NCBI GenBank assembly: GCA_028909515.1
Contig: GCA_028909515.1_4811.1
Reading direction: 5' to 3' (one strand)
Length of the DNA stretch: 64,000 nt
From: a phage
Positions 162 to 42,424 of this stretch are shown here, piece by piece. The first letter of the stretch is position 1, and every line of letters begins with the position of its first letter. A program made the translations under genes and the position numbers. The notes under the pieces were generated by a model, which saw only the letters and a list, made by a program, of their open reading frames with translations, did not search any database and was not told the origin of the DNA.

Positions 162-2342
162 TCACCACTTCAAAGGTGTAGCAGTAAGGTTGTTTATGTC
201 GTTGATATCATCTTGTTCAAGCACTCGTTTCGTTTCGAATGCCGTGCTGCGCGGGTCTTGAGCGCCGTTGACGTTGATGACAACATTTTTCTGACCCATA
301 GTAATATCACGCCCACCAGGTCGACTATTCGCGGAAAGGTCGCCGCCGTATTTCTGGAATGCTTCAAGTTGGAATGCAGCAAGACGAGCGTTTTTCATCG
401 CTTCGGCTTGAATGTTTGGTCTTACACCTGGAGTTGAAGCAAGCTGCATGTTTTTAATATAATCCCTTTGCGTTCCAAGTTTAAGGTAAGTTTGAGCAAA
501 GTCAATATCACCTTTGTTAACTTGCCCCTGCATTAACTGCTCAACAGGCACGTTCAGGTATCCTGCAATGGCTTCTTGCAACTGCCTGTATTGCACAGTT
601 TGGCGCGATTGGCCTTGTACTGGTGCATAGCTGCCCTTTGGCGCTTCCGCTCCGCTACCGCTAAGGACTGGCGTTACTGGTGCACCTTGCGGCGCTGCCG
701 TGGCATACTCACCATTGGATTGTCGGTCGAGAGCGGCCATGACCTTTCCAGGATACGCGCGTGTGTTCTTGCCCCAGCCGCTGCGGTCGTAGCCACCGTG
801 ATACATCGTCAGCGCAAGATTCCAATCGCCGTTGGCAGCGTTTAAATACTCTTTCAAAAGTTGAGCGCCGCCCATAATGTTTTGTCGGGGGTCACTGCCA
901 TCTGTTATTCCAAGACCCTTGAAGTTGGAAGGCATGATTTGCATCAAGCCAGTCGCGCCTGCTCCGCTCACAGCATTTGGATTGAATCCAGATTCAACTT
1001 CAGTCACAGCTTTCATCATCGCTACAGGTATTCCATAGCGTTTTGAAGCTTCCTCATATATCGAGTCATATGCTGTCGGGTTGCCTGATCCAAGATTATT
1101 CCCTACGGTCGCGCCAGTATTCAATGCTGGTGTTCCAGGCATCGCGGATTGACCTGCACTTCGCCCTATCTCACCAGCCCATGCAGCCCACGCTTGTCGC
1201 TCATCAATGACGCCAGCAAAAGTTGAAACAGCACTTGAAAACAGGTTGATGTCGCGAGTGAAAAGCGCCTGTGCAGAACGTTGTTCAGCTGCGTTCTGCT
1301 CTTGATTCCTCTGGCGTTTAATATCGCCATCAGCCATTTGTGTGATCCATCGGTCAACAGCTCTTTCGTGACGTTCATTTACAGCGGCCTGCTTGTCGAA
1401 CGGATGTTTCAAGTCAGAGATGAAGTTGTCGACAAATTCGCTCCATCCGTCAGACATTCTTTGGAACATCATTTGGAATCCTTCGACTGTATCAGCAGTT
1501 TTGCTGACAAGAGTCGAGAATGCAGGCATGACATTTTCACCAATTACCAGCTCAATACGCCGCCAATCTTCTTGAATTTGCCCCATACTATTTCGTATAG
1601 TCTCAAGAGCAGCTTGTTGGCGCTGCAGCTTTGCCGTTTCCTCATCGCTTATGCGCGTGCTTTCTTTTACAGACTGGTTGCGCTCGCGAAGGGCGCGGAC
1701 TTCATCAGCCGTGAATCCTGCCAATGCACCAATAGCACGAGCGGTCTGCTCATTAACGCTTCTCAGCTTTGTTCCAATTTCATCAAGCAGCTGGTTTGTG
1801 TCTTTTATGCCGCCGTTACTGTTGAAAGGACTTGTGCCCATCTTGTTAAGCAATAAGTTGTCCTTGTTCATTACATCAGGGTTGGTGTATGCATTGAACG
1901 CCAAATTAGAAGCTTTACTGATTAAATCACGCGACCCCTGTGCGCCAAGGATTCCACCTGAACTTTCATTCAACTGTCGTTGTAATTGTTCGACACCCAT
2001 TGGAGAGAGTCCGGCTTCAAAGCCAAGCTTTCTTTGCGCTTCGTATTCTTTTCGAACATCAACGATGGATTTGACAACGACGGCCAATCCTGCGACAACA
2101 GGAACGAGCGCGGCAAAGCGATATGTCAGCCGCGCAAGCATTCCGTCAATTGACCCTAGCTCACCAGTAAGGGGCTTTAGCTCGCCAAAAATATCTTTGA
2201 ATGCTCCAGAGAAATCTTTGCCAGCTGATTTTGCCTTTTTGTTTGTCTGATCAACTTTATCTTGCAATTGCTCAAGACGATTGATGGACTCTTTCAAGTC
2301 CACCGTATATTGAAGTACAAATTTTTCTAATGAGTCAGACAC
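162..2342 (-). CDS. tail tape measure protein with C-terminal lytic transglycosylase (SLT-like) domain
   Basis: 726-aa ORF; coiled-coil and hydrophobic N-terminal half; SLT-like motif 'GLMQIMPSNF...ALTMYHGGY'; lies at the distal end of the sheath/tube gene block. Confidence 0.75.
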   Translation of the reverse strand: MSDSLEKFVLQYTVDLKESINRLEQLQDKVDQTNKKAKSAGKDFSGAFKDIFGELKPLTGELGSIDGMLARLTYRFAALVPVVAGLAVVVKSIVDVRKEYEAQRKLGFEAGLSPMGVEQLQRQLNESSGGILGAQGSRDLISKASNLAFNAYTNPDVMNKDNLLLNKMGTSPFNSNGGIKDTNQLLDEIGTKLRSVNEQTARAIGALAGFTADEVRALRERNQSVKESTRISDEETAKLQRQQAALETIRNSMGQIQEDWRRIELVIGENVMPAFSTLVSKTADTVEGFQMMFQRMSDGWSEFVDNFISDLKHPFDKQAAVNERHERAVDRWITQMADGDIKRQRNQEQNAAEQRSAQALFTRDINLFSSAVSTFAGVIDERQAWAAWAGEIGRSAGQSAMPGTPALNTGATVGNNLGSGNPTAYDSIYEEASKRYGIPVAMMKAVTEVESGFNPNAVSGAGATGLMQIMPSNFKGLGITDGSDPRQNIMGGAQLLKEYLNAANGDWNLALTMYHGGYDRSGWGKNTRAYPGKVMAALDRQSNGEYATAAPQGAPVTPVLSGSGAEAPKGSYAPVQGQSRQTVQYRQLQEAIAGYLNVPVEQLMQGQVNKGDIDFAQTYLKLGTQRDYIKNMQLASTPGVRPNIQAEAMKNARLAAFQLEAFQKYGGDLSANSRPGGRDITMGQKNVVINVNGAQDPRSTAFETKRVLEQDDINDINNLTATPLKW

Positions 2343-2763: not shown

Positions 2764-3324
2764 CTATATTCCTACTGTTGATTTTATTTTATTATATAAC
2801 GAACTCACAGTTGTAGTCAAACTGACTGGTTCTTTAATAGCAACACCATTTGATGATTCGTCTGCGGATTGTTTAGGGTCGAAGCTTCCTTGAATGCTAA
2901 ATGACGTTTGCTCGAAAGTTATTACTATTGAGACGCCATTCAAGTTTTCTTCTGACTGGGTTATTTCAACGTCAGACATCGACATTTTACTGGCAATGAT
3001 GCTTCGGGAAGTTATTGAAAATGTGACTTCGTCATCATCAAATGCATTTATGATATTTTCAATTGTAGACTGATCATTGCAAATTACGTTTAACGCCATA
3101 TGGGCTGGCATTACAACCTTTGCCGCCTGTAAATTGCTTACTGATGATGTGCTTGACACTTCGACGACCTGCATTGCTGTACCAGCAAGAGGGAATTGAG
3201 TTGTTTCTGCGGGGGATGTTATTTCTGCAGAAACAGGTGAAAGCCTTGTCCAGACAGGAAGACCTGTTGACTCATTCGTTATGGTCAAAGATTGACCAGA
3301 AAGCAGAATCGAAACGAAGTCCAT
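2764..3324 (-). CDS. hypothetical tail-module protein
   Basis: 186-aa ORF in co-directional tail gene array. Confidence 0.45.
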   Translation of the reverse strand: MDFVSILLSGQSLTITNESTGLPVWTRLSPVSAEITSPAETTQFPLAGTAMQVVEVSSTSSVSNLQAAKVVMPAHMALNVICNDQSTIENIINAFDDDEVTFSITSRSIIASKMSMSDVEITQSEENLNGVSIVITFEQTSFSIQGSFDPKQSADESSNGVAIKEPVSLTTTVSSLYNKIKSTVGI

Positions 3325-3857
3325 CAGAACATCCCCTTGATACCATTCATCACCTTTGTAGCAACGCCAGTGACGCTGGCAGAAGTTTCTTTTATGTATG
3401 CAATGCCGCGCTCTATTACTGTTGAGTCGCCTGCCTGCGCTGTTTGAATAGACACATCCTGCTGTGTTAATATCTCATGGAATACCAATTGTATGGGTTG
3501 CGACGTTATATTGTCAGCGTCCTGGCTGAAGTTGTTATTTTGCAGCACCATACGTTCGAATATTAAACCACGGGAATTAATTGTGTATATAGTCGACCTG
3601 TTTTGCAACATCTTAGCTATTGCATCTGATGCGCTTTTTGTTTGTGCTATCACGGTGACAGTCAGTATTCGCGGCATCTTTACTCTGCCATCGACAATAT
3701 AGCTGCCATCTTCCCTTTGGTTTTTGAATATCTTTGCTTGGAGTCTTATTTTGACGTTGACTATTGCCCATCCAAGCGTGGATACTTCTCCAAGGTTGAA
3801 GCTCTTTATCGTGAAGCTTCTGTTTGATAAACTATATGACAATAAATCGATAGCCAT
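3324..3857 (-). CDS. hypothetical tail-module protein
   Basis: 177-aa ORF abutting neighbours (1-nt overlaps). Confidence 0.45.
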   Translation of the reverse strand: MAIDLLSYSLSNRSFTIKSFNLGEVSTLGWAIVNVKIRLQAKIFKNQREDGSYIVDGRVKMPRILTVTVIAQTKSASDAIAKMLQNRSTIYTINSRGLIFERMVLQNNNFSQDADNITSQPIQLVFHEILTQQDVSIQTAQAGDSTVIERGIAYIKETSASVTGVATKVMNGIKGMF

Positions 3858-4354
3858 TAAATGGACCCCAATATGCTCTGCACCACGCCTTTTGCAATTT
3901 GAGACGTGCTCTGTGCGCCGCCGTAGCTGGCAAACACAAATGTGTATCGGTTTGTCTTGCGACGGCCTGATTGCTCTATGGAGTCACCAAGCGGACCGCT
4001 GATTATTGTTCCGTTCGAGAATGCCACCCTTCCACCGTCAGGATATGTGATAAGCATTGATGTCACATCCTGAATTGGCAACCACTTGAATCCACCTTTA
4101 CGGGCAGATAATAAAAGCTTAAGATTTATGTCATCTTCAGTGTTTGGAATGACCGCAATGGATACGCGAACGACGGCGGCTTTGTCGTATATGCAAATGC
4201 CGCCGTCGTAAGTAAGTTGATAGCCTACTGATTCAACTTCCTCAATAATTAGCGAATCCTGGTCATCAGACAAAGAACTGATATTCAGCCCAACAGGGAA
4301 AGATTGAAGAGCGACAATTCTAATGCTTGTGCCAAATCCACTAATATTGACCAT
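3857..4354 (-). CDS. tail tube-like protein (paralog of 5305..5772)
   Basis: N-terminus 'MVNISGFGTSIRIVA' parallels 'MINVSGFGASIRLVA' of 5305..5772; similar length. Confidence 0.55.
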   Translation of the reverse strand: MVNISGFGTSIRIVALQSFPVGLNISSLSDDQDSLIIEEVESVGYQLTYDGGICIYDKAAVVRVSIAVIPNTEDDINLKLLLSARKGGFKWLPIQDVTSMLITYPDGGRVAFSNGTIISGPLGDSIEQSGRRKTNRYTFVFASYGGAQSTSQIAKGVVQSILGSI

Positions 4355-4979: not shown

Positions 4980-5305
4980 ATTGCAAACTCCGCTTCAGCA
5001 GTGGCCTGGAATTCAGCCAACTCAGATTCTGACATGTAATATAGATTACAGCCGCCAGAGTTAAAACTTTCATAATCAGGTACGCTGTCGAAAATGAAAT
5101 TACCGTACCCAATCATAAGATACTTATAAGGCACCATTGGGATACCACCAAAACAGCGCACCCCTTGAATCAAAAGTTCACCGTTGCGGTATACGTCGGC
5201 GCACATATGCTCGATAGCGGCAAAAATGTGCAACTGCCAATATGCACCGTCAACGTTAAAGCTGATATTCTGGTTAGGTACGCTGTCAAGTGGTATTTGA
5301 TACAT
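4976..5305 (-). CDS. hypothetical protein
   Basis: 109-aa ORF, 4-nt overlap with downstream gene. Confidence 0.45.
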   Translation of the reverse strand: MYQIPLDSVPNQNISFNVDGAYWQLHIFAAIEHMCADVYRNGELLIQGVRCFGGIPMVPYKYLMIGYGNFIFDSVPDYESFNSGGCNLYYMSESELAEFQATAEAEFAI

Positions 5306-5772
5306 TATAAAATCTCTTGGTTGCTCACGCCAGTTTTGACTACGTTCTCAAACTTGAAGCGATATTGACGTGTTTTCACACGACCTTGAGACTGGATGCC
5401 AGGAATTACTGAACCAGTTGTCAAGGTGCCTTTATTCAGCGTGATAACCATTCCAGAAGGATAAGTCAGCACAAGTGTGATCACGTCTTTTGCGGAGTTC
5501 TTACGCTTGCCTACGCGGTTTGCAGCCGCGAGAACGTCCAAGTTGACATCACTTTCAGAAGTAGGGATGATGTTCACGCCTACTTCAAGCGGGTTTGCAC
5601 GGTTCCATACTACCAAGTCACCGTTAAGGCCCATTGCGGCCTCAGAGATTTGCAGGTCCGGCGCGTCAATCGGATCAGCATCATCTGCAAAATCAGAAAG
5701 AGTCACACCATTCGGAAAAGTGTTTGATGCTACCAAACGAATCGAAGCGCCAAAACCGGAAACGTTAATCAT
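5305..5772 (-). CDS. tail tube protein
   Basis: 155-aa ORF immediately downstream of the sheath gene; paralog of 3857..4354. Confidence 0.6.
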   Translation of the reverse strand: MINVSGFGASIRLVASNTFPNGVTLSDFADDADPIDAPDLQISEAAMGLNGDLVVWNRANPLEVGVNIIPTSESDVNLDVLAAANRVGKRKNSAKDVITLVLTYPSGMVITLNKGTLTTGSVIPGIQSQGRVKTRQYRFKFENVVKTGVSNQEIL

Positions 5773-29365: not shown

Positions 29366-29855
29366 TGACTGCCTTCGCGGCAAAACAATCCCAGTGTATA
29401 CCAACAATCCCAGGCGCGGCGCACCACAGGGCCACGGTACAATATCCTGTGAAGAGGTGACTCTCATTTCCTTATACGTATCATCATGGACTACGATTAC
29501 TAAAACTAAAAACATTATTAAAATTCTGAGCACCAACACCACAAGCACCAAGACCCACGGCTAACGCACCGTTAGCCAATACTCCACGATAAAATATCCT
29601 ATAAATTACAAACAATCCGCGTATATAATAGCACCATAATTATTTATTTTTGATTCAATATTTACACTAAAATAAGCCATTGTATTTTCCTCACTGTTCT
29701 ATCCGTATTATTTAGTGGATTAAACTGTCATAAATACTTATAAACGTTGATTGCCACAATATGCAATAATCTTGATAAATTATTATAATATTTTCGCTCT
29801 CTTAAATTACAGCCTTGAATCGTAAATAACCACAAAAAGCCTCACATTACACAGG

Positions 29856-29880
29856 CAAACAAAAAGGGCCAATCGGCCCT
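29856..29880 (-). terminator. rho-independent terminator ending the minus-strand early array
   Basis: Minus-strand GGGCC-gatt-GGCCC followed by TTTTTG. Confidence 0.6.
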
Positions 29881-29897
29881 CTTAACATTAATCATAA

Positions 29898-30350
29898 TTA
29901 AAATATAAAATTCTTCACTCCAAGCCTTTTGAATTCTTTCCTTAACATTATATTAAACTTCTTCAATTTAGTTTTATTCATCCTTAGCGGATTGTAGGTG
30001 AACACCTTTTCTATTACTTCCTTACGCATCTTTGAGCGCATATTAGTTAAGTAATAATTCTTGAACATATTAATAAGGTGATTGGCTTCCAGCTTAAGCT
30101 CAATTACTTCTTCCGATTCATCAAGCTCAAGCAGTCCTTTTTGCGTAAGAATATCTCTTAATATATCCTGACATTTCTTGCAATCACCTTTGCCTAAAAG
30201 CGAGTCGATGTAATCGCCGCTGACGCGCTCATCACCGAAATAAGTTGCGCGACCACAAAGGCTTTGCACTTCTCCTTCATCAAAGTAGTGCGCACGATGA
30301 GCCCACTTCGGTATGGCCCAACCAGCGGCGATAAGCTTTTTACCCATCAC
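29898..30350 (-). CDS. hypothetical protein
   Basis: 150-aa basic ORF, last gene of the minus-strand early array; terminator downstream. Confidence 0.5.
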   Translation of the reverse strand: MMGKKLIAAGWAIPKWAHRAHYFDEGEVQSLCGRATYFGDERVSGDYIDSLLGKGDCKKCQDILRDILTQKGLLELDESEEVIELKLEANHLINMFKNYYLTNMRSKMRKEVIEKVFTYNPLRMNKTKLKKFNIMLRKEFKRLGVKNFIF

Positions 30351-30772
30351 CCCTCCTTAACAACCCGATAAGCAATAATGTCGCTGCCTTTGAGTGCTCC
30401 TATATGACCCCAGTGAAGATGGTCAGAAAGTCTCGACAGTACTTTATCACCTCCATTGCGCAGCTTGTATTCAACAATCTCGCCAGGCACCGGATTCTCG
30501 CCACCAAACCACACGGTCCACGCTTCCTCCTTCGGCGCATCATCATCCACGCCTATAGTGGCAACAACGTCGTGCAACTGCTTAACGAGCGCCCACGCAT
30601 CACGGACCTGCGAGCGTAATGCAACCAACTCGCGTTGCGCTTCACCATATTTCGCTTCCAGCGCGGCATAGTCCTCATATTCAACGTAGCCGCCTTCATC
30701 ATCCTTTACAACTTCGCAGGTGCAAGCGTGCTGCGTGCAATAATCAACATCGTAACGTTGTATCATGATCAA
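30347..30772 (-). CDS. hypothetical protein with conserved C-terminal 'GG.NPVPG...DIIAYRVV' domain
   Basis: 141 aa; C-terminal domain shared with 32172..32672. Confidence 0.5.
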   Translation of the reverse strand: MIMIQRYDVDYCTQHACTCEVVKDDEGGYVEYEDYAALEAKYGEAQRELVALRSQVRDAWALVKQLHDVVATIGVDDDAPKEEAWTVWFGGENPVPGEIVEYKLRNGGDKVLSRLSDHLHWGHIGALKGSDIIAYRVVKEG

Positions 30773-31029
30773 TACTCCTTGTTTACTTCTTCAATTATTT
30801 TTTCGGCCAATTTGATTGCCTGTTCTTTGTTTAACACCAAACATGATGTTTCACTGTATATCGACAGCTCAACAAGATTGCAACCTCCTTCACCATCGTT
30901 GTAAAACTGAATGCTGCACACATCGCCGTCATTATCTTCAAACTCAAAGGTTGGGCATTCAGGGGTCCGAAGATTGCTCCTGTCCTTGAACATTTCTTTT
31001 AAGCAATCATTAATCATTTTAAGCTCCAA
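30769..31029 (-). CDS. hypothetical protein
   Basis: 86-aa acidic ORF, 4-nt overlap. Confidence 0.45.
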   Translation of the reverse strand: MELKMINDCLKEMFKDRSNLRTPECPTFEFEDNDGDVCSIQFYNDGEGGCNLVELSIYSETSCLVLNKEQAIKLAEKIIEEVNKEY

Positions 31030-31505
31030 GTATTTAACAGGGTGTTTCGTAAGTTCTGCACTTCTATCTTGAGAAGGTCAATTTGCAAGTCACGATGGGC
31101 CAGTTCAGCGGCGATGTCCGACTTGCTGTAAAGTCCTTCATGAGTCATGGCATAGATGTGGCGCGTATAATAGCCGCCCTCGTCGAGTTGCTCGATGTCA
31201 CGCTGCCCGACTGCGTATTGTTTATCGGTCGATGGCGCTGGGTCCTGGATTTTGATTGATTCGACTTCCTTCAATGAATCGCGTGATGCTGGCCTGTTCT
31301 CTTCGAACATCTTTCCATCACCAATTTGCTTGCACCAAAGCGAATCGCCAATTGCGTATCCCCACTGGCCGCGCCAATCGTTCCATGCAGGCTTCCCCTC
31401 ATACGCCCAGATGGTTCCGTTAGAGTCACGCGCAACGAATCGCGCACGAGCGTCTATTTCGTATTCTTTACCTTCAAAATTGATGCGCTGCGTTTTGTTA
31501 GTCAT
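31014..31505 (-). CDS. hypothetical protein
   Basis: 163-aa ORF in early array. Confidence 0.45.
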   Translation of the reverse strand: MTNKTQRINFEGKEYEIDARARFVARDSNGTIWAYEGKPAWNDWRGQWGYAIGDSLWCKQIGDGKMFEENRPASRDSLKEVESIKIQDPAPSTDKQYAVGQRDIEQLDEGGYYTRHIYAMTHEGLYSKSDIAAELAHRDLQIDLLKIEVQNLRNTLLNTWSLK

Positions 31506-31834
31506 GATGCATCCTTAGTTGGATAGAATTTAGGGTTGTTCTTATAGAACGCCTTGAGCCATGCCTTTGCTTCAGCAATGCTGCTGAACTCTTCCTTGGA
31601 GAGTCCGGTGCGGTCCTCGCCTGCGACCTTGAAATGGATGCGCACCTTGAGACGAAGGTTGGTTGCTCTCGCGTAGTGGCCTTCATAGCCGTCATGGTTA
31701 AGGCTTACTATCGCGGCGAGCATCTCGCAGTCTTCTTTATCGGGATTGCCGCTGTAACAAATCGGCCAGCCACGACGTTGGAATGACCTGTATGAGCCTG
31801 TCGGCTCAGGGTCCACGTACCATTTCAATTTCAT
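31502..31834 (-). CDS. hypothetical protein
   Basis: 110-aa ORF, 4-nt overlap. Confidence 0.45.
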   Translation of the reverse strand: MKLKWYVDPEPTGSYRSFQRRGWPICYSGNPDKEDCEMLAAIVSLNHDGYEGHYARATNLRLKVRIHFKVAGEDRTGLSKEEFSSIAEAKAWLKAFYKNNPKFYPTKDAS

Positions 31835-32172
31835 TTAACCTTCTCCAATTGGAATCTCGTTTCAGGAAAGCCCGCAACAAACATGTCACGGCCCTCTACA
31901 TCACGCTTCACAAACCATCTCATGCCGTTAACAACCGTGAAGACAATTTGCTTTCCATCAATAATAAGTCCTTTTGCCTCATAAAGCAAATAAGACTGAC
32001 CGACCTTGAAGATTGACAGTTCTTTGCCTGTGCTGGTGCACTTGAGCCGCCACTTGGTGAGATTGGATTCACTCGCCTCGATGTCAACAATCTTACCGCG
32101 CAGCGGCGATGTGCGCTGAAGCTCGGCCATCTGTTCATCGAACGTTAGCTCACGGCCTTCTTGCTCTTCCAT
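31831..32172 (-). CDS. hypothetical protein
   Basis: 113-aa ORF, 4-nt overlap. Confidence 0.45.
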   Translation of the reverse strand: MEEQEGRELTFDEQMAELQRTSPLRGKIVDIEASESNLTKWRLKCTSTGKELSIFKVGQSYLLYEAKGLIIDGKQIVFTVVNGMRWFVKRDVEGRDMFVAGFPETRFQLEKVK

Positions 32173-32672
32173 TATTCCTCCACGACGCGATAAGCGATGA
32201 TGTCATACCCCGATTCTTTATGACTCCAACGCCATTTTTCGGATTTTGAAGGAAAAATCGTCTTTGTGCCTTGCCTTACCGCCACGCGGACTAACTTGCC
32301 AGGCACCGGATTGTCGCCGCCATCCCAATCAATCCAACCGTCAGCAGTCTTTTGTTTATCCTTCAAATGCTCATGCTTCTCACCGATGTGGGCGACAGGT
32401 TGACGGCTTCCGTAATAGAATGCTAATGCAACGTCGTAGGATGGATGAGTATTCGAAAGACAGATGTCATCGCACCAAAGCTCCATGGTGCGCGACTTAA
32501 GCGTCATCATGTTAGTATACCACTCGATGGTGTAGTGGTCGTTAAGGTTGCCGACGATATAGAAGTTGCGACAAAAGTGCGCAGCGTCATCCGACTTCTC
32601 GCGGCTATAGCTTCTGATTGCGCCTGCCTTTACAGCCATTTCCAATACTGCTTCGAGTTGTTCGATTTTCAT
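32172..32672 (-). CDS. hypothetical protein with conserved C-terminal 'GG.NPVPG...DIIAYRVV' domain
   Basis: 166 aa; C-terminus 'WDGGDNPVPGKLV...YDIIAYRVVEE' paralogous to 30347..30772. Confidence 0.5.
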   Translation of the reverse strand: MKIEQLEAVLEMAVKAGAIRSYSREKSDDAAHFCRNFYIVGNLNDHYTIEWYTNMMTLKSRTMELWCDDICLSNTHPSYDVALAFYYGSRQPVAHIGEKHEHLKDKQKTADGWIDWDGGDNPVPGKLVRVAVRQGTKTIFPSKSEKWRWSHKESGYDIIAYRVVEE

Positions 32673-32905
32673 TTCTTTGCTCCTAGTTCAATTTGATAGC
32701 CGATTGACAATTCATTTTCGCCGATGTTGAATGCATCAACGGGCTGCGACATCACCGCTTTTAAATATACCTTCTTGCGCCGCTTCGCCTTGTACAGACA
32801 ACGGTCGCCGCTGCGGTTGTAGATGTTAAGCCAGGTGCGCTTGCTAATCTTATACGGCACATGCGGCTTGATGAACAGTAAACGGGCTTTAAGGTTGGAT
32901 GTCAT
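32669..32905 (-). CDS. hypothetical protein
   Basis: 78-aa basic ORF. Confidence 0.4.
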   Translation of the reverse strand: MTSNLKARLLFIKPHVPYKISKRTWLNIYNRSGDRCLYKAKRRKKVYLKAVMSQPVDAFNIGENELSIGYQIELGAKK

Positions 32906-33200
32906 AATAGTATTTTCCTCCTCTCATGTTCTCTTTAATTCCTTGTAATGCCTCGCGACCCTTCTTTGTCATCACCACGGATGAATAGCGCGTCGGGTCT
33001 TTCTCTCCTGGCACCGCCCAATCAACAAGGCCCAACCGGAATAAGACAGGGATTGATGGCGCATTGATGTCGTGAAACAGTGATGGCCGCTTTTCATAAG
33101 CCTTCTTGCAATCGCCGCGCAGCATGTATGGCGTTCCGTCTTCCATGCGATATAATGTCTGAATCTGAGCTAGGCTTAATCTCATTGCTGTCTTCTCCAA
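32889..33200 (-). CDS. hypothetical protein
   Basis: 103-aa ORF. Confidence 0.4.
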   Translation of the reverse strand: MEKTAMRLSLAQIQTLYRMEDGTPYMLRGDCKKAYEKRPSLFHDINAPSIPVLFRLGLVDWAVPGEKDPTRYSSVVMTKKGREALQGIKENMRGGKYYYDIQP

Positions 33201-33367
33201 ACTGCGTGTAATGTTTTCTGGTCAAACTTGGACAGCGTTTCACGCTCCGAAGCCTTAAGGAATCGCGTGCCAAAGAACAGCATGCCTTGCGGCGTTTTAA
33301 CGAGTGACACGCCTTTGTTGCGGTAGAAGCTTACCAGTGCTGATGCGTTATGGACTTCGGTACTCAT
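33182..33367 (-). CDS. hypothetical protein
   Basis: 61-aa ORF. Confidence 0.35.
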   Translation of the reverse strand: MSTEVHNASALVSFYRNKGVSLVKTPQGMLFFGTRFLKASERETLSKFDQKTLHAVWRRQQ

Positions 33368-33697: not shown

Positions 33698-33745
33698 AGT
33701 ATAATACAGACAAATAAAAAGGCAAGCAATTAGCTCACCTTTTTG
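33698..33745 (-). promoter_or_regulatory. terminator-promoter composite element (copy 1)
   Basis: Minus strand: AAAAAGGTGAGC-taatt-GCTTGCCTTTTT hairpin whose 3' arm supplies -35 TTGCCT, 16-bp spacer, -10 TATACT, then TACTTCATCAAG. Confidence 0.5.
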
Positions 33746-34397: not shown

Positions 34398-34630
34398 TTT
34401 GCATACTCCATAGCATATCGCTGCAACTTGAATGCAGCCTTGTTTAGTTGCTTGTGTCTTGCGTACAAGCGCTCACGTTCTTCTTCAGGGCAATCGGCAC
34501 GAAGAATAGACATGGCAATACTTGACATGGCATTAAGGGTGCGCTGAAAGGCAGACACCATGCGCAACTCATTGCGCTTATTAAAAGACAACTTACCCAG
34601 CGCGGCATTCATAATTGCACCTCGACACAC
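34394..34630 (-). CDS. hypothetical protein
   Basis: 78-aa ORF, 4-nt overlap. Confidence 0.45.
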   Translation of the reverse strand: MCRGAIMNAALGKLSFNKRNELRMVSAFQRTLNAMSSIAMSILRADCPEEERERLYARHKQLNKAAFKLQRYAMEYAK

Positions 34631-34926
34631 GATTCACTGGCCTTGAAGCTCCAGCCTTCCAGACCGACTTCGCCGCAACAGCGCACCTTTGCCCAGCCAG
34701 TCATGAGCCATTGGTGATACTTTTCGAAGTATGTCGGCTTTTCTGAGTAACAATGAACAAGGCCGTTATCGTCAATGGCCACGTAACGCGTCCAAGGTGC
34801 AACGGGTACAACTACGTCGGGGTGGCCTTCTGGCCAAGGCTTGGTGTGTACAGCTGTGTTCAAGTCTATGTTTAACACGCTTCCTAACCGCTCGTCTTGT
34901 TCCTTGTCGATGCCTAAGTAAATCAT
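34609..34926 (-). CDS. hypothetical protein
   Basis: 105-aa ORF; RBS GAGGTG; promoter/terminator composite upstream. Confidence 0.5.
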   Translation of the reverse strand: MIYLGIDKEQDERLGSVLNIDLNTAVHTKPWPEGHPDVVVPVAPWTRYVAIDDNGLVHCYSEKPTYFEKYHQWLMTGWAKVRCCGEVGLEGWSFKASESCVEVQL

Positions 34927-34958: not shown

Positions 34959-35006
34959 AGTATAAATATTGATAAAAGAAAAGGCAAGCATTTAGCTCAC
35001 CTTTTG
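34959..35006 (-). promoter_or_regulatory. terminator-promoter composite element (copy 2)
   Basis: Minus strand: AAAAGGTGAGC-taaat-GCTTGCCTTTT hairpin, -35 TTGCCT, 17-bp spacer, -10 TATACT, then CTTTTCATCAAG. Confidence 0.5.
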
Positions 35007-37714: not shown

Positions 37715-38362
37715 TTATCCTGTGGCCTGCATATTGCGTACATACTTCTGCTCTAATGAATAGATGAAGTCGGCGACAGTTAATCCCTTCGTGTGCCATT
37801 CATACATGGTGAAGCCTGTATTCAGGAAATAGCCGCGCACCTTGTCCATCGCTTCAGCTTCCTCCATTGAAGCCATCAGCGCGGCGACGTTGTCATAAGA
37901 AGGCACAAATCCCTTCTTGCGTAGCGCATTGCGCAAATCTTTAGTTCTGAATCCAATCTTGCAAGGGTCATCACGGCCCGTGGATGATGCAACCTTCGGT
38001 AGCGCAAGGAACTCTTTAAGGAACATTGCAATGTTCAAGTCTCCTGCGTCATCAAGCTTCTGGATTCGGTTGCGACCGCGACCCTTGAATTCACTTGCAC
38101 GAGGGTGAGCGCCAAAACAGTGCGCCCCTTCCAGTTTAGGGTCGATGATCATTACATCTTTACCAATGCGCAGCTCTACGTAGTAAAGATAAGACTCATC
38201 GACAAGCTTTGTGCGCTTGCAAGTGATTGAGTCCTTATCATAACCAAAGCCACGCAACACGGTTGAAATCATCCGGTTCATTTCTTCGCCGTGAACGTCA
38301 CTCTCTTTGTTCAGTTCACCAAGATTTTGAAAGAATTTAGCGATGTTGATTGCTTTATTCAT
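37715..38362 (-). CDS. hypothetical protein
   Basis: 215-aa ORF immediately downstream of the helicase-like gene. Confidence 0.5.
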   Translation of the reverse strand: MNKAINIAKFFQNLGELNKESDVHGEEMNRMISTVLRGFGYDKDSITCKRTKLVDESYLYYVELRIGKDVMIIDPKLEGAHCFGAHPRASEFKGRGRNRIQKLDDAGDLNIAMFLKEFLALPKVASSTGRDDPCKIGFRTKDLRNALRKKGFVPSYDNVAALMASMEEAEAMDKVRGYFLNTGFTMYEWHTKGLTVADFIYSLEQKYVRNMQATG

Positions 38363-40032
38363 CAGAATTCATCCTTATCTCTTCCCAAAGAACGTTTACG
38401 CTCAATAACCTTCTTCAAGAATTCAATATCTTCAGGGTCAGACTCATCGCGGATGAGATACGCTAAGATGGTCATCAAATCAGAAATGTATTCCCCTGAT
38501 TCATTCTTAATCAGCGGCGTAAAGTAACCGCGCTGGTTGCGATAGGTTGCAGGCTCAAAACCAAGCTTCGACATGTGCGGCGCAAGGGTACGAGAGAAAG
38601 GCGACTTGCCGCACTTCGCTCTGAATCCCATAGCAATAGCACCACTGGTGATGTGCCAGCGTCCGCTGTGATGTCGGTCATAAGGCGCGGTGATGACGAC
38701 TTCAACAAGGTCGTTGTCAACCATCTCATCACGGATAACGCCGCGCGCACGTTCCATTTCGTTCTTGCTGAACTCAGTAAGCATGCGAGATGTTTCACCA
38801 ACAAACGCATTGTAACCTGCTTCGCCGTGCTTCTCCATCCACGCAGCACACTCAGCCATCAACTGCCAAACGTCTTCTTTCAAAGTGGAAAGGTCAGCTT
38901 GGAAATCTTTCGACCAGTTCGGTTGCCCGTCCTTGTCAGCGAGTTGGCCAACAAAGATAGGATACACACGACGGTTGCCCGTGTCATCGCGCTGCATACC
39001 TGCGTATTCATTGCCGTCCATGATAGCAATCCACTGGCGTGGTTTAACCTGCGTATCTTCAAATTTGAAGTCCAGGTCATCTTCTGTCTTAGTCAGGAAT
39101 GCTTTCATGTTTTCGATGTCGGCCTTTTTAAAGCCTGTCATCTCGCCGACGTTCGCGATAATCGAGCGACCCGTAATAGCTCGCAAGAACGGGTTGAAGT
39201 TTTGCGCGGCTAAGTTTAACGGAATCGGTGTTGCGTGGCGGTCGTTCATAATAGCTTCGCAAAGCAGCTTGCTAAAATAACTCTTCCCTGCGTTCTGGCC
39301 GCCGATGAGCGCGATGGAGATTGGCGCTTGACAGCCAGGGTTGGTCAGGCGGTTATAGAGCGATAGCCAAAAATACACACCGATTTGTCGGTTTAACTCT
39401 GTATCGAATGGTCGGAATAGCTCGATAAGGTATTTCTCGATGCGCGCAGTACCGTCCCATTCAGGCAGCTTCTTGTAGAAGAAGTCCATCAGGTCGTCGC
39501 GCTGATAACGCATGGCCCATTCCTTATAGGATTGAGCGACCTGACGTGAGTTTGGGTTGGACAATCCTGCTGCGTCGACAGCGGCAACTATCTCTGTGAC
39601 TTCCAAAGTACGGTCGGTGAATGTTTCGCCGCGATGGTCGACTAAGCGCCCACGAAAAGTATCTTTGTGAGGGAATGGAACAACGCCACTTCCCTTATCA
39701 AACAACGCGTCGAAAACCGCATAACGGTTCATGTCACTCGTCCTGTCTGCCTGTAGAACGAAGTCATCTTTGGTAGGCTTGTAGTGAGGGAACTTGATTA
39801 CCTGAAGTGAGGCGAGCAAGCGTGCTCTTTCAACCAAGTCTTCTTCACCGTAGCATTCCATGCGCTCTGAATCTTTTTCAACGGCTTTATGTTGAAGGCT
39901 GATTTTAGCTCTGGTGCCTTGCTGCTCTGCCGCCTGCATTTCTTCCGAAACGCCTGCATCTTGAATTTCGTCAAAGATTGCACCAAATTCATCACCTGTA
40001 TCCTCTGGAAGATTGTCATTATTAATTGACAT
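38362..40032 (-). CDS. primase-associated SF3-type helicase (D5/VirE-like P-loop NTPase)
   Basis: 556 aa; Walker A 'GGQNAGKS' and downstream Walker B-like acidic patch. Confidence 0.65.
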   Translation of the reverse strand: MSINNDNLPEDTGDEFGAIFDEIQDAGVSEEMQAAEQQGTRAKISLQHKAVEKDSERMECYGEEDLVERARLLASLQVIKFPHYKPTKDDFVLQADRTSDMNRYAVFDALFDKGSGVVPFPHKDTFRGRLVDHRGETFTDRTLEVTEIVAAVDAAGLSNPNSRQVAQSYKEWAMRYQRDDLMDFFYKKLPEWDGTARIEKYLIELFRPFDTELNRQIGVYFWLSLYNRLTNPGCQAPISIALIGGQNAGKSYFSKLLCEAIMNDRHATPIPLNLAAQNFNPFLRAITGRSIIANVGEMTGFKKADIENMKAFLTKTEDDLDFKFEDTQVKPRQWIAIMDGNEYAGMQRDDTGNRRVYPIFVGQLADKDGQPNWSKDFQADLSTLKEDVWQLMAECAAWMEKHGEAGYNAFVGETSRMLTEFSKNEMERARGVIRDEMVDNDLVEVVITAPYDRHHSGRWHITSGAIAMGFRAKCGKSPFSRTLAPHMSKLGFEPATYRNQRGYFTPLIKNESGEYISDLMTILAYLIRDESDPEDIEFLKKVIERKRSLGRDKDEF

Positions 40033-41341: not shown

Positions 41342-42424
41342 CTATTTTATGCCACCTGCACGACGATTTATCATGTCAAGTTGATTCTCAATATAAGGCA
41401 TGACGATTGCTTCAACAAAAGCGGTCCAACCTTTCTTGCCTTCCCCTTTACGGTGACAGTCGTGGGCGCAACCGAACACAAATTCATGTTCTGCACCAGG
41501 GATAGGGCCGCGAAAGTAAGCGCCATACGGGTCGCCGTTGGTGTGTTCTTCACCCCAAGGACAGATTATGCGGCACTTGCCTGACATGTTCTCGATGACG
41601 TCACCATCAGACCCTTCACCCATCTTGCTGCGCGCTAGAATCTGCTGGGCTATTTTATACCAAACAGCATCATACTTGTATTCATCGACGTCAATTTGAA
41701 TCTCACGCTTTTGCGGCATGACGACGTGAAAGCCAAATGCCTGACAAATGTCTTCGATGGTGTAGCGCAATGAGTAGTCTGCATGGACAAGTCGGCAGCG
41801 GAACGGGTCGCCGTTCTCATCGACATATTTATAGGGGCCGTCATGAGTCACACGCTTGTTGTTGATGCACCCAGGAACACGGCCCACGCGCGTTACGTCT
41901 TTAATCGTGTTGTCGCCGCCCTTCTTGAGTACCATGTTAACGAAAGACCCAAGGAACGCTTTGAACTGAATAAGATGGTCAATCGGTTCTTTAAAGAAGT
42001 ACCAAAGCTGGTGGTTGTTCGGTGAAGTCTCGACGATGACAGTCGGCTTCAGTCGCTCAAAAAAGAATTCCAAATCTAAATCGCCTTTGGACCCTTTACC
42101 GTGACCGATGTCGTCGACCATCATCGCCATGCCGTGACCAAAGGCCGACTCTGTACGCCAGTATCGCATCTCACCCGTCTTTGGGTTGGGAGACTTACGC
42201 ATTGAACTGATGCAAGCATAGCCGTTTTGGTGCTGCATGAGCGGCTTTCCCAACTTCCAAGGCTTAGGCCAGAAGCTGCTGTTAATCTTCTTGCCGCGCT
42301 CGTCAGTCTGCACCGTTGCTTCAGGCGCAAACACCGTCATGACGCGCTCATCTTCTGGAATGCCTCTTTGGAGTTCTGTTAAAAACTCTTCGATTATTTT
42401 TGCTTCTTCTCTTAAACTAGCCAT
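41342..42424 (-). CDS. primase-polymerase-like replication protein (AEP-type, tentative)
   Basis: 360 aa; acidic 'VDDIGHG' and 'NNHQLWYFF' resemble AEP primase motifs I and II; C-terminal Cys/His cluster; first gene after a strong TTGACT-N16-TATACT promoter. Confidence 0.4.
   Translation of the reverse strand: MASLREEAKIIEEFLTELQRGIPEDERVMTVFAPEATVQTDERGKKINSSFWPKPWKLGKPLMQHQNGYACISSMRKSPNPKTGEMRYWRTESAFGHGMAMMVDDIGHGKGSKGDLDLEFFFERLKPTVIVETSPNNHQLWYFFKEPIDHLIQFKAFLGSFVNMVLKKGGDNTIKDVTRVGRVPGCINNKRVTHDGPYKYVDENGDPFRCRLVHADYSLRYTIEDICQAFGFHVVMPQKREIQIDVDEYKYDAVWYKIAQQILARSKMGEGSDGDVIENMSGKCRIICPWGEEHTNGDPYGAYFRGPIPGAEHEFVFGCAHDCHRKGEGKKGWTAFVEAIVMPYIENQLDMINRRAGGIK

What the first reader, a model, noticed from the sequence alone, without database searches (positions are those of the whole stretch)
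30347..32672. Shared C-terminal domain on two otherwise unrelated early proteins
Proteins 30347..30772 and 32172..32672 end in the same ~55-aa module: W-x-x-W-x-G-G-[ED]-N-P-V-P-G-x-[IL]-V ... DIIAYRVV-[KE]-E. Their N-terminal regions differ. A mobile C-terminal module on early proteins suggests a common target or partner, for example a host protein or nucleic acid.
Basis: seen in the sequence. Interest (0 to 1): 0.4.

Follow-up and report, generated by a model that had tools for sequence, protein, structure and literature searches.

The report
Swappable hypervariable module on phage proteins
Two small proteins of an E. coli phage end in the same ~55-residue domain, which belongs to a very large, unnamed phage domain family; its conserved edges frame a central part that is exchanged like a cassette between related phages, which suggests a variable binding module, although its function is unknown.

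Summary
Proteins 30347..30772(-) and 32172..32672(-) share a C-terminal module (BLASTP 39% over 76 aa, E=3e-14). It is one of only two paralogous pairs among 354 window ORFs. The window is a Wifcevirus, an E. coli myophage of about 68 kb.

The main new result concerns the module's centre. Among Wifcevirus relatives the ~30 central residues fall into discrete, unrelated alleles (aa identity 0.39; nt ~50-58%). The rest of the gene is about 90% identical. Each allele is under purifying selection. Alleles move between the two genes, the module can be duplicated or lost, and recombination between the two copies deleted the intervening genes in ECML-117.

Best reading, which is inferred: a small scaffold that displays a variable binding surface at a phage-host conflict interface. 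The function is untested. A shared target for the two proteins, and nucleic-acid binding, are not favoured.

The parts
32172..32672 (-). Gene B, 166 aa: N-terminal alpha+beta domain, flexible linker, C-terminal module
   Evidence: ORF. AF2 of the full length: helix 3-15 plus eight strands 21-99, pLDDT below 50 at residues 102-108, module pLDDT 84-90, pTM 0.52, which indicates two independent domains. The exact sequence is in NCBI as a hypothetical protein.
32361..32672 (-). B N-terminal domain (aa 1-104), equivalent to phrog_21861, unknown function
   Evidence: phrog_21861 E=9e-54 covers 1-104 of a 104-position profile. The domain exists without the module in AV128 and Mansfield and in P0232 and P0236. 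Mean pairwise identity across 46 family representatives is 0.90. No PDB or Pfam match.
32175..32339 (-). Module copy of B (aa 112-166)
   Evidence: phrog_9174 E=6e-15. AF2 pLDDT 84.
32205..32294 (-). Hypervariable centre of the B module (aa 127-156), allele 'LVRVAVRQGTKTIFPSKSEKWRWSHKESGY'
   Evidence: Nucleotide identity to 12 relatives carrying a full-length module with a different allele is 49-58%, against 94-95% in the two phages that share the allele and 87-96% in the N-terminal domain. Seven allele groups among 46 representatives, with mean identity 0.39. Within-allele pN/pS is 0.10-0.23.
30347..30772 (-). Gene A, 141 aa (139 from the ATG): short N-terminal cap, helical segment, C-terminal module
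   Evidence: ORF. Each of the three parts exists in alternative alleles in relatives.
30668..30766 (-). A N-terminal cap (MIQRYD...YVEYEDY); at least two alternative versions in relatives
   Evidence: phrog_23083 E=6e-9; phrog_3592 'Lar-like' only E=0.002; no Pfam Lar hit. Alternative caps MIQRYDLTYDV...RFVAYEDY and MINRFNC...WIHYEDY in relatives.
30557..30667 (-). A central helical, coiled-coil-like segment (inferred from sequence only); two alternative alleles
   Evidence: AALEAKYGEAQRELVALRSQVRD... in some relatives against ESLLKLNESLTKEIEQYRERIK... in others. Helicity was not computed.
30350..30523 (-). Module copy of A (aa 84-141)
   Evidence: phrog_9174 E=5e-10, phrog_11995 E=6e-10.
30383..30481 (-). 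Centre of the A module (aa 98-130), allele 'EIVEYKLRNGGDKVLSRLSDHLHWGHIGALKGS'
   Evidence: At least six different centre alleles at this position among 17 relatives. The same allele is fused to the B N-terminus in ECML-117 and P0225.
32295..32322 (-). 28-nt conserved N-flank (GGxNPVPG coding), 89% identical to 30479-30506 in gene A; a likely recombination site
   Evidence: blastn. The ECML-117 chimera switches from B-type to A-type sequence exactly here.
33698..33744 (-). Hairpin plus sigma-70-like promoter (TTGCCT-16-TATACT) that probably starts the roughly 11-gene unit containing B and A
   Evidence: Consensus match only, so inferred.
29858..29880 (-). Intrinsic terminator GGGCC-GATT-GGCCC-TTTTT ending that unit
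   Evidence: Read directly. WFH annotates a terminator at the homologous place.

Best explanation
SHOWN. The shared segment is an autonomous domain of about 55 residues, rich in beta structure. Its framework is W-x2-W-x-G-G-x-[CN]-P-V ... V-x-V-x2-R-x-G ... W-x-H ... D-I-[IV]-A-Y-R-[VL]. It belongs to a very large, unnamed family of phage and prophage accessory proteins. It is joined to its partners by flexible linkers and behaves as a cassette. Within Wifcevirus the conserved flanks are recombination points, and the ~30-residue centre exists as discrete, deeply divergent alleles. Each allele is kept under purifying selection. Alleles are exchanged between phages and between genes A and B.

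INFERRED (mechanism). The conserved aromatic and glycine residues build a small stable scaffold. The variable strand and loop surface between them is a specificity-determining binding face. In A the module is displayed on a probably oligomeric helical stalk; in B it is tethered to an alpha+beta domain of unknown activity. The module most likely binds a polymorphic protein partner in the infected cell, such as a host, prophage or defence component. It would thereby recruit or position the N-terminal part, or simply block the partner. Different alleles, tandem copies and the two paralogues would broaden or shift the range of partners, so diversity would be maintained by host-dependent selection.
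For: - Real homology: (E=3e-14).
- Family size and architectures: 8,892 representatives at E<=1e-3, 1,960 at 1e-10; up to 9 matched stretches per protein; 1-5 copies, at the N-terminus, C-terminus or internal. Stand-alone proteins of 61-70 aa appear.
- Distribution: 262 phage records across Salmonella, Klebsiella, Escherichia, Pseudomonas, Burkholderia, Rhizobium and Caulobacter phages. Examples sit in lambdoid nin regions.
- Autonomous fold: AF2 pLDDT 84, pTM 0.71. In the full-length B model a disordered linker at 102-108 separates two confident domains.
- Cassette behaviour: nucleotide identity is 87-96% in the N-terminal domain, 83-100% in the C-flank, and 49-58% in the centre unless the allele is shared, when it is 94-95%. 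Amino-acid identity is 0.90, 0.81, 0.39 and 0.94 for the N-terminal domain, N-flank, centre and C-flank, with 7 allele groups in 46 representatives.
- Movement of alleles: they are shared between gene A and gene B in different phages. ECO71P1 has a tandem duplication. ECML-117 carries the B N-terminus fused to the A allele and lacks the four intervening genes.
- Constraint within alleles: pN/pS in the centre is 0.10-0.23, against 0.13-0.18 in the N-terminal domain. The centre is therefore functional, not decaying.
- Generality: the same pattern of conserved flanks and a variable centre appears in an unrelated ~280-aa protein of seven Klebsiella siphophages.
- Charge: the family is acidic, which fits protein binding better than DNA binding.
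- Genomic setting: a string of small accessory genes behind sigma-70-like promoters.
Against: - No partner or binding has been shown, and there is no structural analogue from which to borrow a mechanism.
- Exchange of discrete alleles could result from frequent recombination at conserved flanks without diversifying selection.
- Within alleles there is no excess of non-synonymous change.
- The module is dispensable in some isolates: cleanly absent in AV128, Mansfield, P0232 and P0236, and frameshifted in P0233-P0235.
- No member matches a known defence or anti-defence model.
- The recurrent fusions to DUF3310, DUF6378, dGTP_diPhyd_N and HD domains point as readily to a nucleotide-related role.
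- The three-dimensional positions of conserved and variable residues could not be inspected.
Confidence: 0.4

Rival explanations
1. Nucleotide or small-molecule binding module. The conserved W, R, W-x-H and D...Y-R residues would form a ligand pocket, for example for a (deoxy)nucleotide or an immune signalling nucleotide. Tandem copies would multiply the number of sites. Fusion to NTP-hydrolase-like domains would couple binding to hydrolysis. The variable centre would simply be free surface.
For: The only recognisable recurrent partners form one group: DUF3310 (6 proteins), DUF6378 (6), dGTP_diPhyd_N (5), dATP-dGTP_PPHyd (1) and HD (1) among 146 representatives. PHROGs labels the partners 'nucleotide kinase'. 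Explicit architectures include P0017, P0028 and P0057 (2-3 modules followed by DUF3310), P0081 (2 modules followed by dGTP_diPhyd_N) and P0127 (2 modules followed by DUF6378). BFVD matches include Xanthomonas phage OP1 and Xop411 proteins of this kind. Tandem arrays are common.
Against: A and B themselves carry no such enzyme domain. The candidate polar residues are not invariant. R26 is 85% and H44 only 72% conserved family-wide, and Wifcevirus alleles replace them: L in 'VEFELLNG', and E, D, N or K in place of H. About 85% of the surveyed partners are unrelated to nucleotide enzymes. No similarity to known sponge or nucleotide-binding folds.
Confidence: 0.15
2. Structural or self-association module without specific target recognition. 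It would act as a dimerisation or stacking unit or as a stabilising cap. Its surface would be only loosely constrained, and allele diversity would be a neutral by-product of recombination at the conserved flanks in a highly mosaic gene region.
For: The whole region is mosaic: A's cap and helical segment also exist as alternative alleles, neighbouring genes come and go, and relatives cover only 46-90% of the region. The module is dispensable in some isolates. There is no signal of positive selection within alleles. The short conserved nucleotide flanks provide microhomology.
Against: The centre is under purifying selection as strong as in the N-terminal domain, so its sequence matters. The sharp contrast in B between a centre at 0.39 identity and an N-terminal domain at 0.90, and its recurrence in Klebsiella phages, is more than general mosaicism. 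Stand-alone 61-aa versions argue for a function of the module by itself.
Confidence: 0.2
3. The module is what the host sees. It would be a conserved functional element sensed by an abortive-infection or prophage-encoded defence, and the alleles would be escape variants.
For: The allelic pattern and the loss or frameshift variants resemble escape from recognition. Wifcevirus phages are blocked by E. coli K-12 cryptic prophages and could only be isolated on a strain lacking them (PMC11990801).
Against: No link between these genes and that phenotype is known. Escape usually proceeds by point mutation or loss, not by maintaining many ancient constrained alleles. This rival does not explain tandem arrays or fusions.
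Confidence: 0.1
4. Chance similarity, a recent intragenomic duplication, or a target of a diversity-generating retroelement.
For: Only the two short strings are obvious by eye. The variable region lies at the C-terminus, as in DGR targets.
Against: E=3e-14 and thousands of homologues rule out chance. DNA similarity is confined to two flanks of about 28 nt, so the copies are old. No template-repeat copy exists in the window, and the alleles differ by indels and at all base types, unlike adenine-directed mutagenesis.
Confidence: 0.02

Closest known systems
PHROG families 9174, 26870, 16943, 11995 (also 13874, 27780), all 'unknown function'
   Same: These profiles contain the module, and both A and B match them over the module only. 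All 146 surveyed representatives match phrog_9174.
   Different: They are whole-protein clusters, not a domain definition. The module sits at different profile positions (10-77 of 157, 97-165 of 236, 103-162 of 166). None has a name, a structure or a function.
DUF551 (PF04448) and similar small mobile modules of lambdoid nin-region proteins
   Same: A short, Trp-rich module fused to varied partners in phage accessory regions. A DUF551 gene lies a few genes from a module-bearing gene in the same nin-type regions. The Trp-rich character of DUF551 is from my own knowledge.
   Different: No sequence relationship: Pfam finds no DUF551 in A, B or the module set. DUF551 has not been described as allelically hypervariable.
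WW domain (for example Salvador homolog 1, PDB 2ysb)
   Same: Small size, two signature tryptophans and a proline. The module profile aligns to it weakly over GG-x-C-P-V...W-S-H (E=0.025).
   Different: The hit is marginal, and the first WW tryptophan is not matched. There is no Pfam WW hit and no fold match. The module is about 20 residues longer.
Variable-region scaffolds of phage receptor-binding or DGR-target proteins
   Same: A conserved framework displaying a hypervariable surface, located at a C-terminus, in a phage-host conflict setting.
   Different: Diversification here is by exchange of pre-existing alleles through recombination, not templated mutagenesis. The proteins are small, lack signal peptides, and lie among non-structural genes.
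Phage DUF3310 proteins (PHROGs label: T7 gp1.7-type nucleotide kinase) and dGTP_diPhyd_N / DUF6378 proteins
   Same: The most frequent identifiable fusion partners of the module elsewhere.
   Different: A and B do not contain these domains. The relation is one of domain neighbourhood, not homology.

Membership tests
Unnamed WxxW-GG-x-[CN]PV ... DI[IV]AYR module family (the module part of PHROGs 9174/26870/16943/11995) | Significant profile match restricted to the ~55-aa module | tested here: met
   A residues 79-139 and B residues 105-165 match phrog_9174 (E=5e-10 and 6e-15). Both score about 130 bits against the module HMM.
Unnamed WxxW-GG-x-[CN]PV ... DI[IV]AYR module family (the module part of PHROGs 9174/26870/16943/11995) | Framework residues W6, W9, G11, G12, P15, V21, R26, W42, D50, I51, Y54, R55, each at least 85% conserved in 134 modules | tested here: met
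   All are present in both A and B. Position 14 is N rather than the usual C (63%). H44 (72% conserved family-wide) is also present in both.
Unnamed WxxW-GG-x-[CN]PV ... DI[IV]AYR module family (the module part of PHROGs 9174/26870/16943/11995) | Folds on its own | tested here: met
   Stand-alone proteins of 61-70 aa. AF2 pLDDT 84 for the isolated module. In full-length B the module is separated by a low-confidence linker. This is prediction only; there is no experimental structure.
WW domain | Match to WW profiles, and a three-stranded fold with two Trp 20-22 residues apart | tested here: not met
Tudor / SH3-like barrel | Profile or fold similarity | tested here: not met
Lar-like restriction alleviation protein (N-terminus of A) | Match to PF14354 or its zinc-ribbon cysteines | tested here: not met
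   No Pfam hit at E<=0.1. Only phrog_3592 at E=0.002 over 45 residues. There are no paired CxxC motifs in the sequence.
DGR (diversity-generating retroelement) target | A template repeat nearly identical to the variable region, with adenine-specific differences | tested here: not met
   No second copy of the variable DNA in the window. Alleles differ by indels and at all bases.
DGR (diversity-generating retroelement) target | An accompanying reverse transcriptase gene | not tested
   The window was not scanned gene by gene for a reverse transcriptase.
DUF3310 / DUF6378 / dGTP_diPhyd_N proteins | Presence of the helical domain | tested here: not met
   Absent from A and B. Present only in other module-bearing proteins.
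Known anti-phage defence proteins (PADLOC) | Match to a defence-system model | tested here: not met
   Only coiled-coil-type JetC and LmuB hits in 1 of 146 proteins.

The most novel reading that the evidence does not exclude
The module is a previously unrecognised small fold that phages use as a natural binder scaffold. On this reading it is a cassette-diversified recognition domain, present in thousands of phage lineages. Its alleles would determine which host or prophage immunity proteins, or other polymorphic host factors, a phage can neutralise. Allele shuffling, tandem arrays and paralogues such as A and B would then serve as a recombination-based repertoire of counter-defence specificities.
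Probability: 0.2. Interest if true: 0.8.

Novelty: new variant of a known kind. Interest (0 to 1): 0.45.

Why it matters
Shuffling of small domains among phage accessory genes is well known, so the finding itself is not surprising. This module is worth attention for several reasons:
- It is unusually abundant, with about 8,900 50%-identity clusters.
- It has no curated domain model, no solved relative and no literature that I could find.
- It has a clear, testable population-genetic signature: discrete, constrained alleles framed by recombination-prone conserved edges, seen in two unrelated phage groups.

That signature marks it as a candidate specificity determinant in phage-host or phage-prophage conflict. 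Wifcevirus isolates now exist in a tractable E. coli K-12 system (BASEL Bas98-101) and carry different alleles, so allele-swap experiments are directly feasible. A domain definition would also annotate thousands of hypothetical proteins and clarify the architecture of DUF3310-type phage enzymes.

Tried and rejected
- Pfam and NCBIfam on A, B, stand-alone modules, 134 isolated modules and 146 full-length representatives: no model for the module.
- BFVD returned only uncharacterised homologues.
- PDB sequence-profile search: only a marginal WW hit, plus chance Aca2 and RfaH hits.
- PDB searches with the N-terminal parts of A and B: nothing meaningful. The hits were low-complexity matches to designed TPR proteins.
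- Tudor_Coilin Pfam hits turned out to be 16-residue sub-threshold matches.
- The 'Lar-like' label for A's N-terminus rests on one weak PHROG hit and was rejected.
- PADLOC: no defence link.
- The search for homologous proteins with module profiles returned few hits because of its word index. The exhaustive search was needed.
With a consensus sequence it found only 14 bacterial loci, in Pantoea, Bosea, Gallionella, Enterobacter, Sphingomonas and others. Their prophage status was not checked.
- Full-text search for the motif strings found no paper.
- A DGR explanation was rejected.
- Positive selection within alleles was looked for and not found (small sample).
Full report
1. WHAT IS THERE

The window is a Wifcevirus-type E. 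coli/Shigella myophage. Megablast of 29800-33300 finds 29 phage records at about 90% identity, including ECO71P1, Bas98-101, FEC19, WFH and ECML-117. Every gene under the match is annotated 'hypothetical protein'.

Both ORFs named in the finding lie on the minus strand. BLASTP between them gives one significant segment, 30/76 identities with E=3e-14, covering the last ~60 residues of each and nothing else. In an all-against-all BLASTP of 354 window ORFs, this is one of only two paralogous pairs. An HMM of the two copies finds no third copy in six frames.

2. SETTING

A and B lie in a 12.5-kb run of about 35 small minus-strand genes. The run follows two genes that match DNA primase and helicase PHROGs (41342..42424 and 38362..40032). 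It starts at a divergent promoter region opposite a Dda-like helicase gene.

Within the run, a hairpin plus a sigma-70-like promoter (33698-33744) and a clean intrinsic terminator (29858-29880) bracket about 11 tightly packed, often overlapping genes. These include B and A, with four genes between them. 'Early' is thus plausible from position and promoter type, but it is not demonstrated.

3. THE MODULE IS A LARGE UNNAMED DOMAIN FAMILY

- **No curated model.** Pfam and NCBIfam have nothing for it, whether queried with A, B, stand-alone homologues, 134 isolated modules or 146 full-length representatives.
- **PHROGs contains it only inside unnamed whole-protein clusters.** The module matches at different profile positions.
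- **Family size.** A 13-sequence profile searched exhaustively against 1.84 billion cluster representatives gives 8,892 proteins at E<=1e-3 and 1,960 at E<=1e-10.
- **Architectures.** Members include stand-alone proteins of 61-70 aa. The module also occurs at the N-terminus, the C-terminus or internally. Tandem arrays are common: 2-5 copies by my strict count and up to 9 matched stretches.
- **Distribution.** A consensus tblastn finds 262 phage records from Salmonella, Klebsiella, Escherichia, Pseudomonas, Burkholderia, Rhizobium, Caulobacter and other hosts, all hypothetical. Two short module proteins sit in lambdoid nin regions, one between the O and DnaB-like replication genes and NinB/NinG, the other just downstream of NinG. 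A limited genome scan finds the module in Pantoea, Bosea, Gallionella, Enterobacter, Sphingomonas and others.
- **Literature.** No paper in the library contains the motif strings.

4. STRUCTURE

Full-length B is predicted as two independent domains: an alpha+beta domain (helix 3-15, eight strands 21-99), a linker with pLDDT below 50 at 102-108, and the module at pLDDT 84-90. The pTM is 0.52.

The conserved positions are W6, W9, G11, G12, P15, V21, R26, W42, D50, I51, Y54 and R55 (each at least 85%), together with C14, G28, A37 and H44 (63-73%). The aromatic-rich pattern is what a domain this small needs for a core. That is inference, because I could not inspect coordinates.

The family is acidic on average, with net charge -2.8 and median pI 5.1. 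This argues against general nucleic-acid binding.

5. PARTNERS

Most partners are unrecognisable. The only recurrent identifiable ones form one group: DUF3310 (6), DUF6378 (6), dGTP_diPhyd_N (5), dATP-dGTP_PPHyd (1) and HD (1) among 146 representatives. PHROGs labels them 'nucleotide kinase'. Example architectures are two or three modules followed by DUF3310 (P0017, P0028, P0057), by dGTP_diPhyd_N (P0081) or by DUF6378 (P0127). BFVD gives the same picture. There is no link to known defence models. A and B themselves carry none of these domains.

6. THE MAIN NEW RESULT: A HYPERVARIABLE, EXCHANGEABLE CENTRE

I compared 17 Wifcevirus genomes (analysed in 52, 63, 64) and 46 full-length B-family cluster representatives.

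Identity along gene B:

| Region of B | Nucleotide identity of relatives to the window | Mean pairwise amino-acid identity (46 representatives) |
|---|---|---|
| N-terminal domain | 87-96% | 0.90 |
| N-flank of module | about 73-91% (measured together with the linker) | 0.81 |
| Centre (aa 127-156) | 49-58%; 94-95% in the two phages sharing the allele (RCIP0319, RCIP0363) | 0.39 (minimum 0.08) |
| C-flank of module | 83-100% in most | 0.94 |
| Downstream gene | about 90% | not measured |

The centre falls into seven allele groups.

- **Alleles are constrained.** Within allele groups the centre is under purifying selection as strong as in the N-terminal domain: pN/pS 0.10-0.23 against 0.13-0.18 (small sample). 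The alleles are therefore old, constrained variants and not decaying sequence.
- **Alleles cross between the two genes.** The A allele of WFH resembles the B allele of EC150, and the A allele of Mansfield resembles the B allele of Bas101.
- **Duplication.** ECO71P1 protein A carries two tandem modules.
- **Loss.** AV128 and Mansfield (P0232, P0236) have B without the module. P0233-P0235 are frameshifted inside it.
- **Deletion by recombination between the copies.** ECML-117 (also P0225) encodes the B N-terminus fused to the A-type centre, with the switch in the NPVPG flank, and lacks the four genes between A and B. Recombination between the two module copies explains this. They share 28 nt at 89% exactly there.
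- **A similar deletion product.** P0001 fuses the first six codons of the 31502..31834 gene to A's module.
- **Other parts of A vary too.** Its N-terminal cap and helical segment each exist in at least two alleles, and kaset has an extra insert.
- **Seen in a second phage group.** A ~280-aa protein of seven Klebsiella siphophages carries the module internally. The flanks are conserved (...AAKNDGWIEWGGGECPV and DIIAYRLH...) and the centre is highly variable with many indels.
- **Not a DGR.** There is no template repeat, and the alleles differ by indels and at all base types.

7. INTERPRETATION

**Shown.**
- The module is a genuine, autonomous and very widespread domain without a curated name.
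- It is shuffled as a cassette.
- Its centre is allelically hypervariable yet constrained.

**Inferred.** The framework is a scaffold and the centre is a specificity surface. The most economical function is binding of a polymorphic protein partner in the infected cell. A would present the module on a probably oligomeric helical stalk, and B would tether it to an unknown alpha+beta domain. I put this at about 0.4.

**Rivals.**
- A nucleotide or small-molecule binding unit, at 0.15. It is supported by the enzyme fusions and weakened by the non-invariance of the candidate pocket residues.
- A structural or self-association unit with neutral recombinational diversity, at 0.2. It is weakened by within-allele constraint and by the sharp contrast between domains.
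- A sensed element undergoing escape, at 0.1. Wifcevirus phages are blocked by K-12 cryptic prophages (PMC11990801), but nothing links that to these genes.

The 'mobile module' is right. A 'common target' is not favoured, because the two copies in this phage differ precisely in the exchangeable centre. 'Nucleic acid' is disfavoured by charge.

8. VERDICT

The finding is confirmed and extended. It is an instance of a familiar phenomenon, domain shuffling among phage accessory genes. It involves a domain family that is uncatalogued by curated resources, structurally unmatched and very abundant, and it carries a clean cassette-polymorphism signature that makes its function experimentally approachable. 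The function remains unknown. Interest is 0.45.

Noticed in passing
window 33717-33741(-) and 34979-35003(-): Two copies of the same hairpin element, AAGGTGAGCTAA[A/T]TGCTTGCCTTTT (0 expected by chance). Each is followed by TTGCCT-N16/17-TATACT. They look like combined terminator/promoter cassettes that punctuate the small-gene run.
   Followed up: partly
window 3857..4354(-) and 5305..5772(-): The only other paralogous pair in the window: 33% identity over 141 aa, E=1e-25. It lies in the leftward block of larger minus-strand genes at the start of the window and was not characterised.
   Followed up: no
window 31014..31505(-) and 34609..34926(-): Both match phrog_1972 (E=5e-10 and 7e-21) over an N-terminal segment (…NGTIWAYEGKP… and …NGLVHCYSEKP…). 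This is a second small module shared by otherwise different proteins of the same region.
   Followed up: no
L006 (ECML-117) 3012..3524; protein P0225: A chimeric gene made of the B N-terminus plus the A-type module. The four genes between A and B are absent, which indicates recombination between the two module copies at the NPVPG-coding flank.
   Followed up: yes
L002 (ECO71P1) 996..1592; L012 (kaset) 1507..2175: The ECO71P1 protein A homologue has two tandem modules with different centres. The kaset homologue has an insertion of about 80 aa, bounded by a duplicated YEDYAALEAKY junction, between the cap and the helical segment.
   Followed up: partly
protein P0001 (70 aa, on a 67-kb Wifcevirus-like contig): A stand-alone module whose first six residues (MKLKWY) equal the start of the 31502..31834 gene. 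It is apparently a deletion that fuses that start to A's module.
   Followed up: partly
L037-L043 (Klebsiella siphophages), the ~280-aa ORF between the endolysin and head-morphogenesis genes: A mosaic protein with an internal module and at least three further variable segments, separated by strongly conserved linkers (ITREQYEAALAAKNDGWIEWGGGECPV, DLNECIGQD, FRPIRSE, YDAIAAGKIPGVKLED).
   Followed up: partly
window 32361..32672(-), B N-terminal domain: A confidently predicted helix plus eight-strand domain with no Pfam, PDB-sequence or named PHROG relative. It has two polymorphic patches of its own, at aa 20-33 and 73-93. Fold-search jobs were exhausted before it could be compared.
   Followed up: partly
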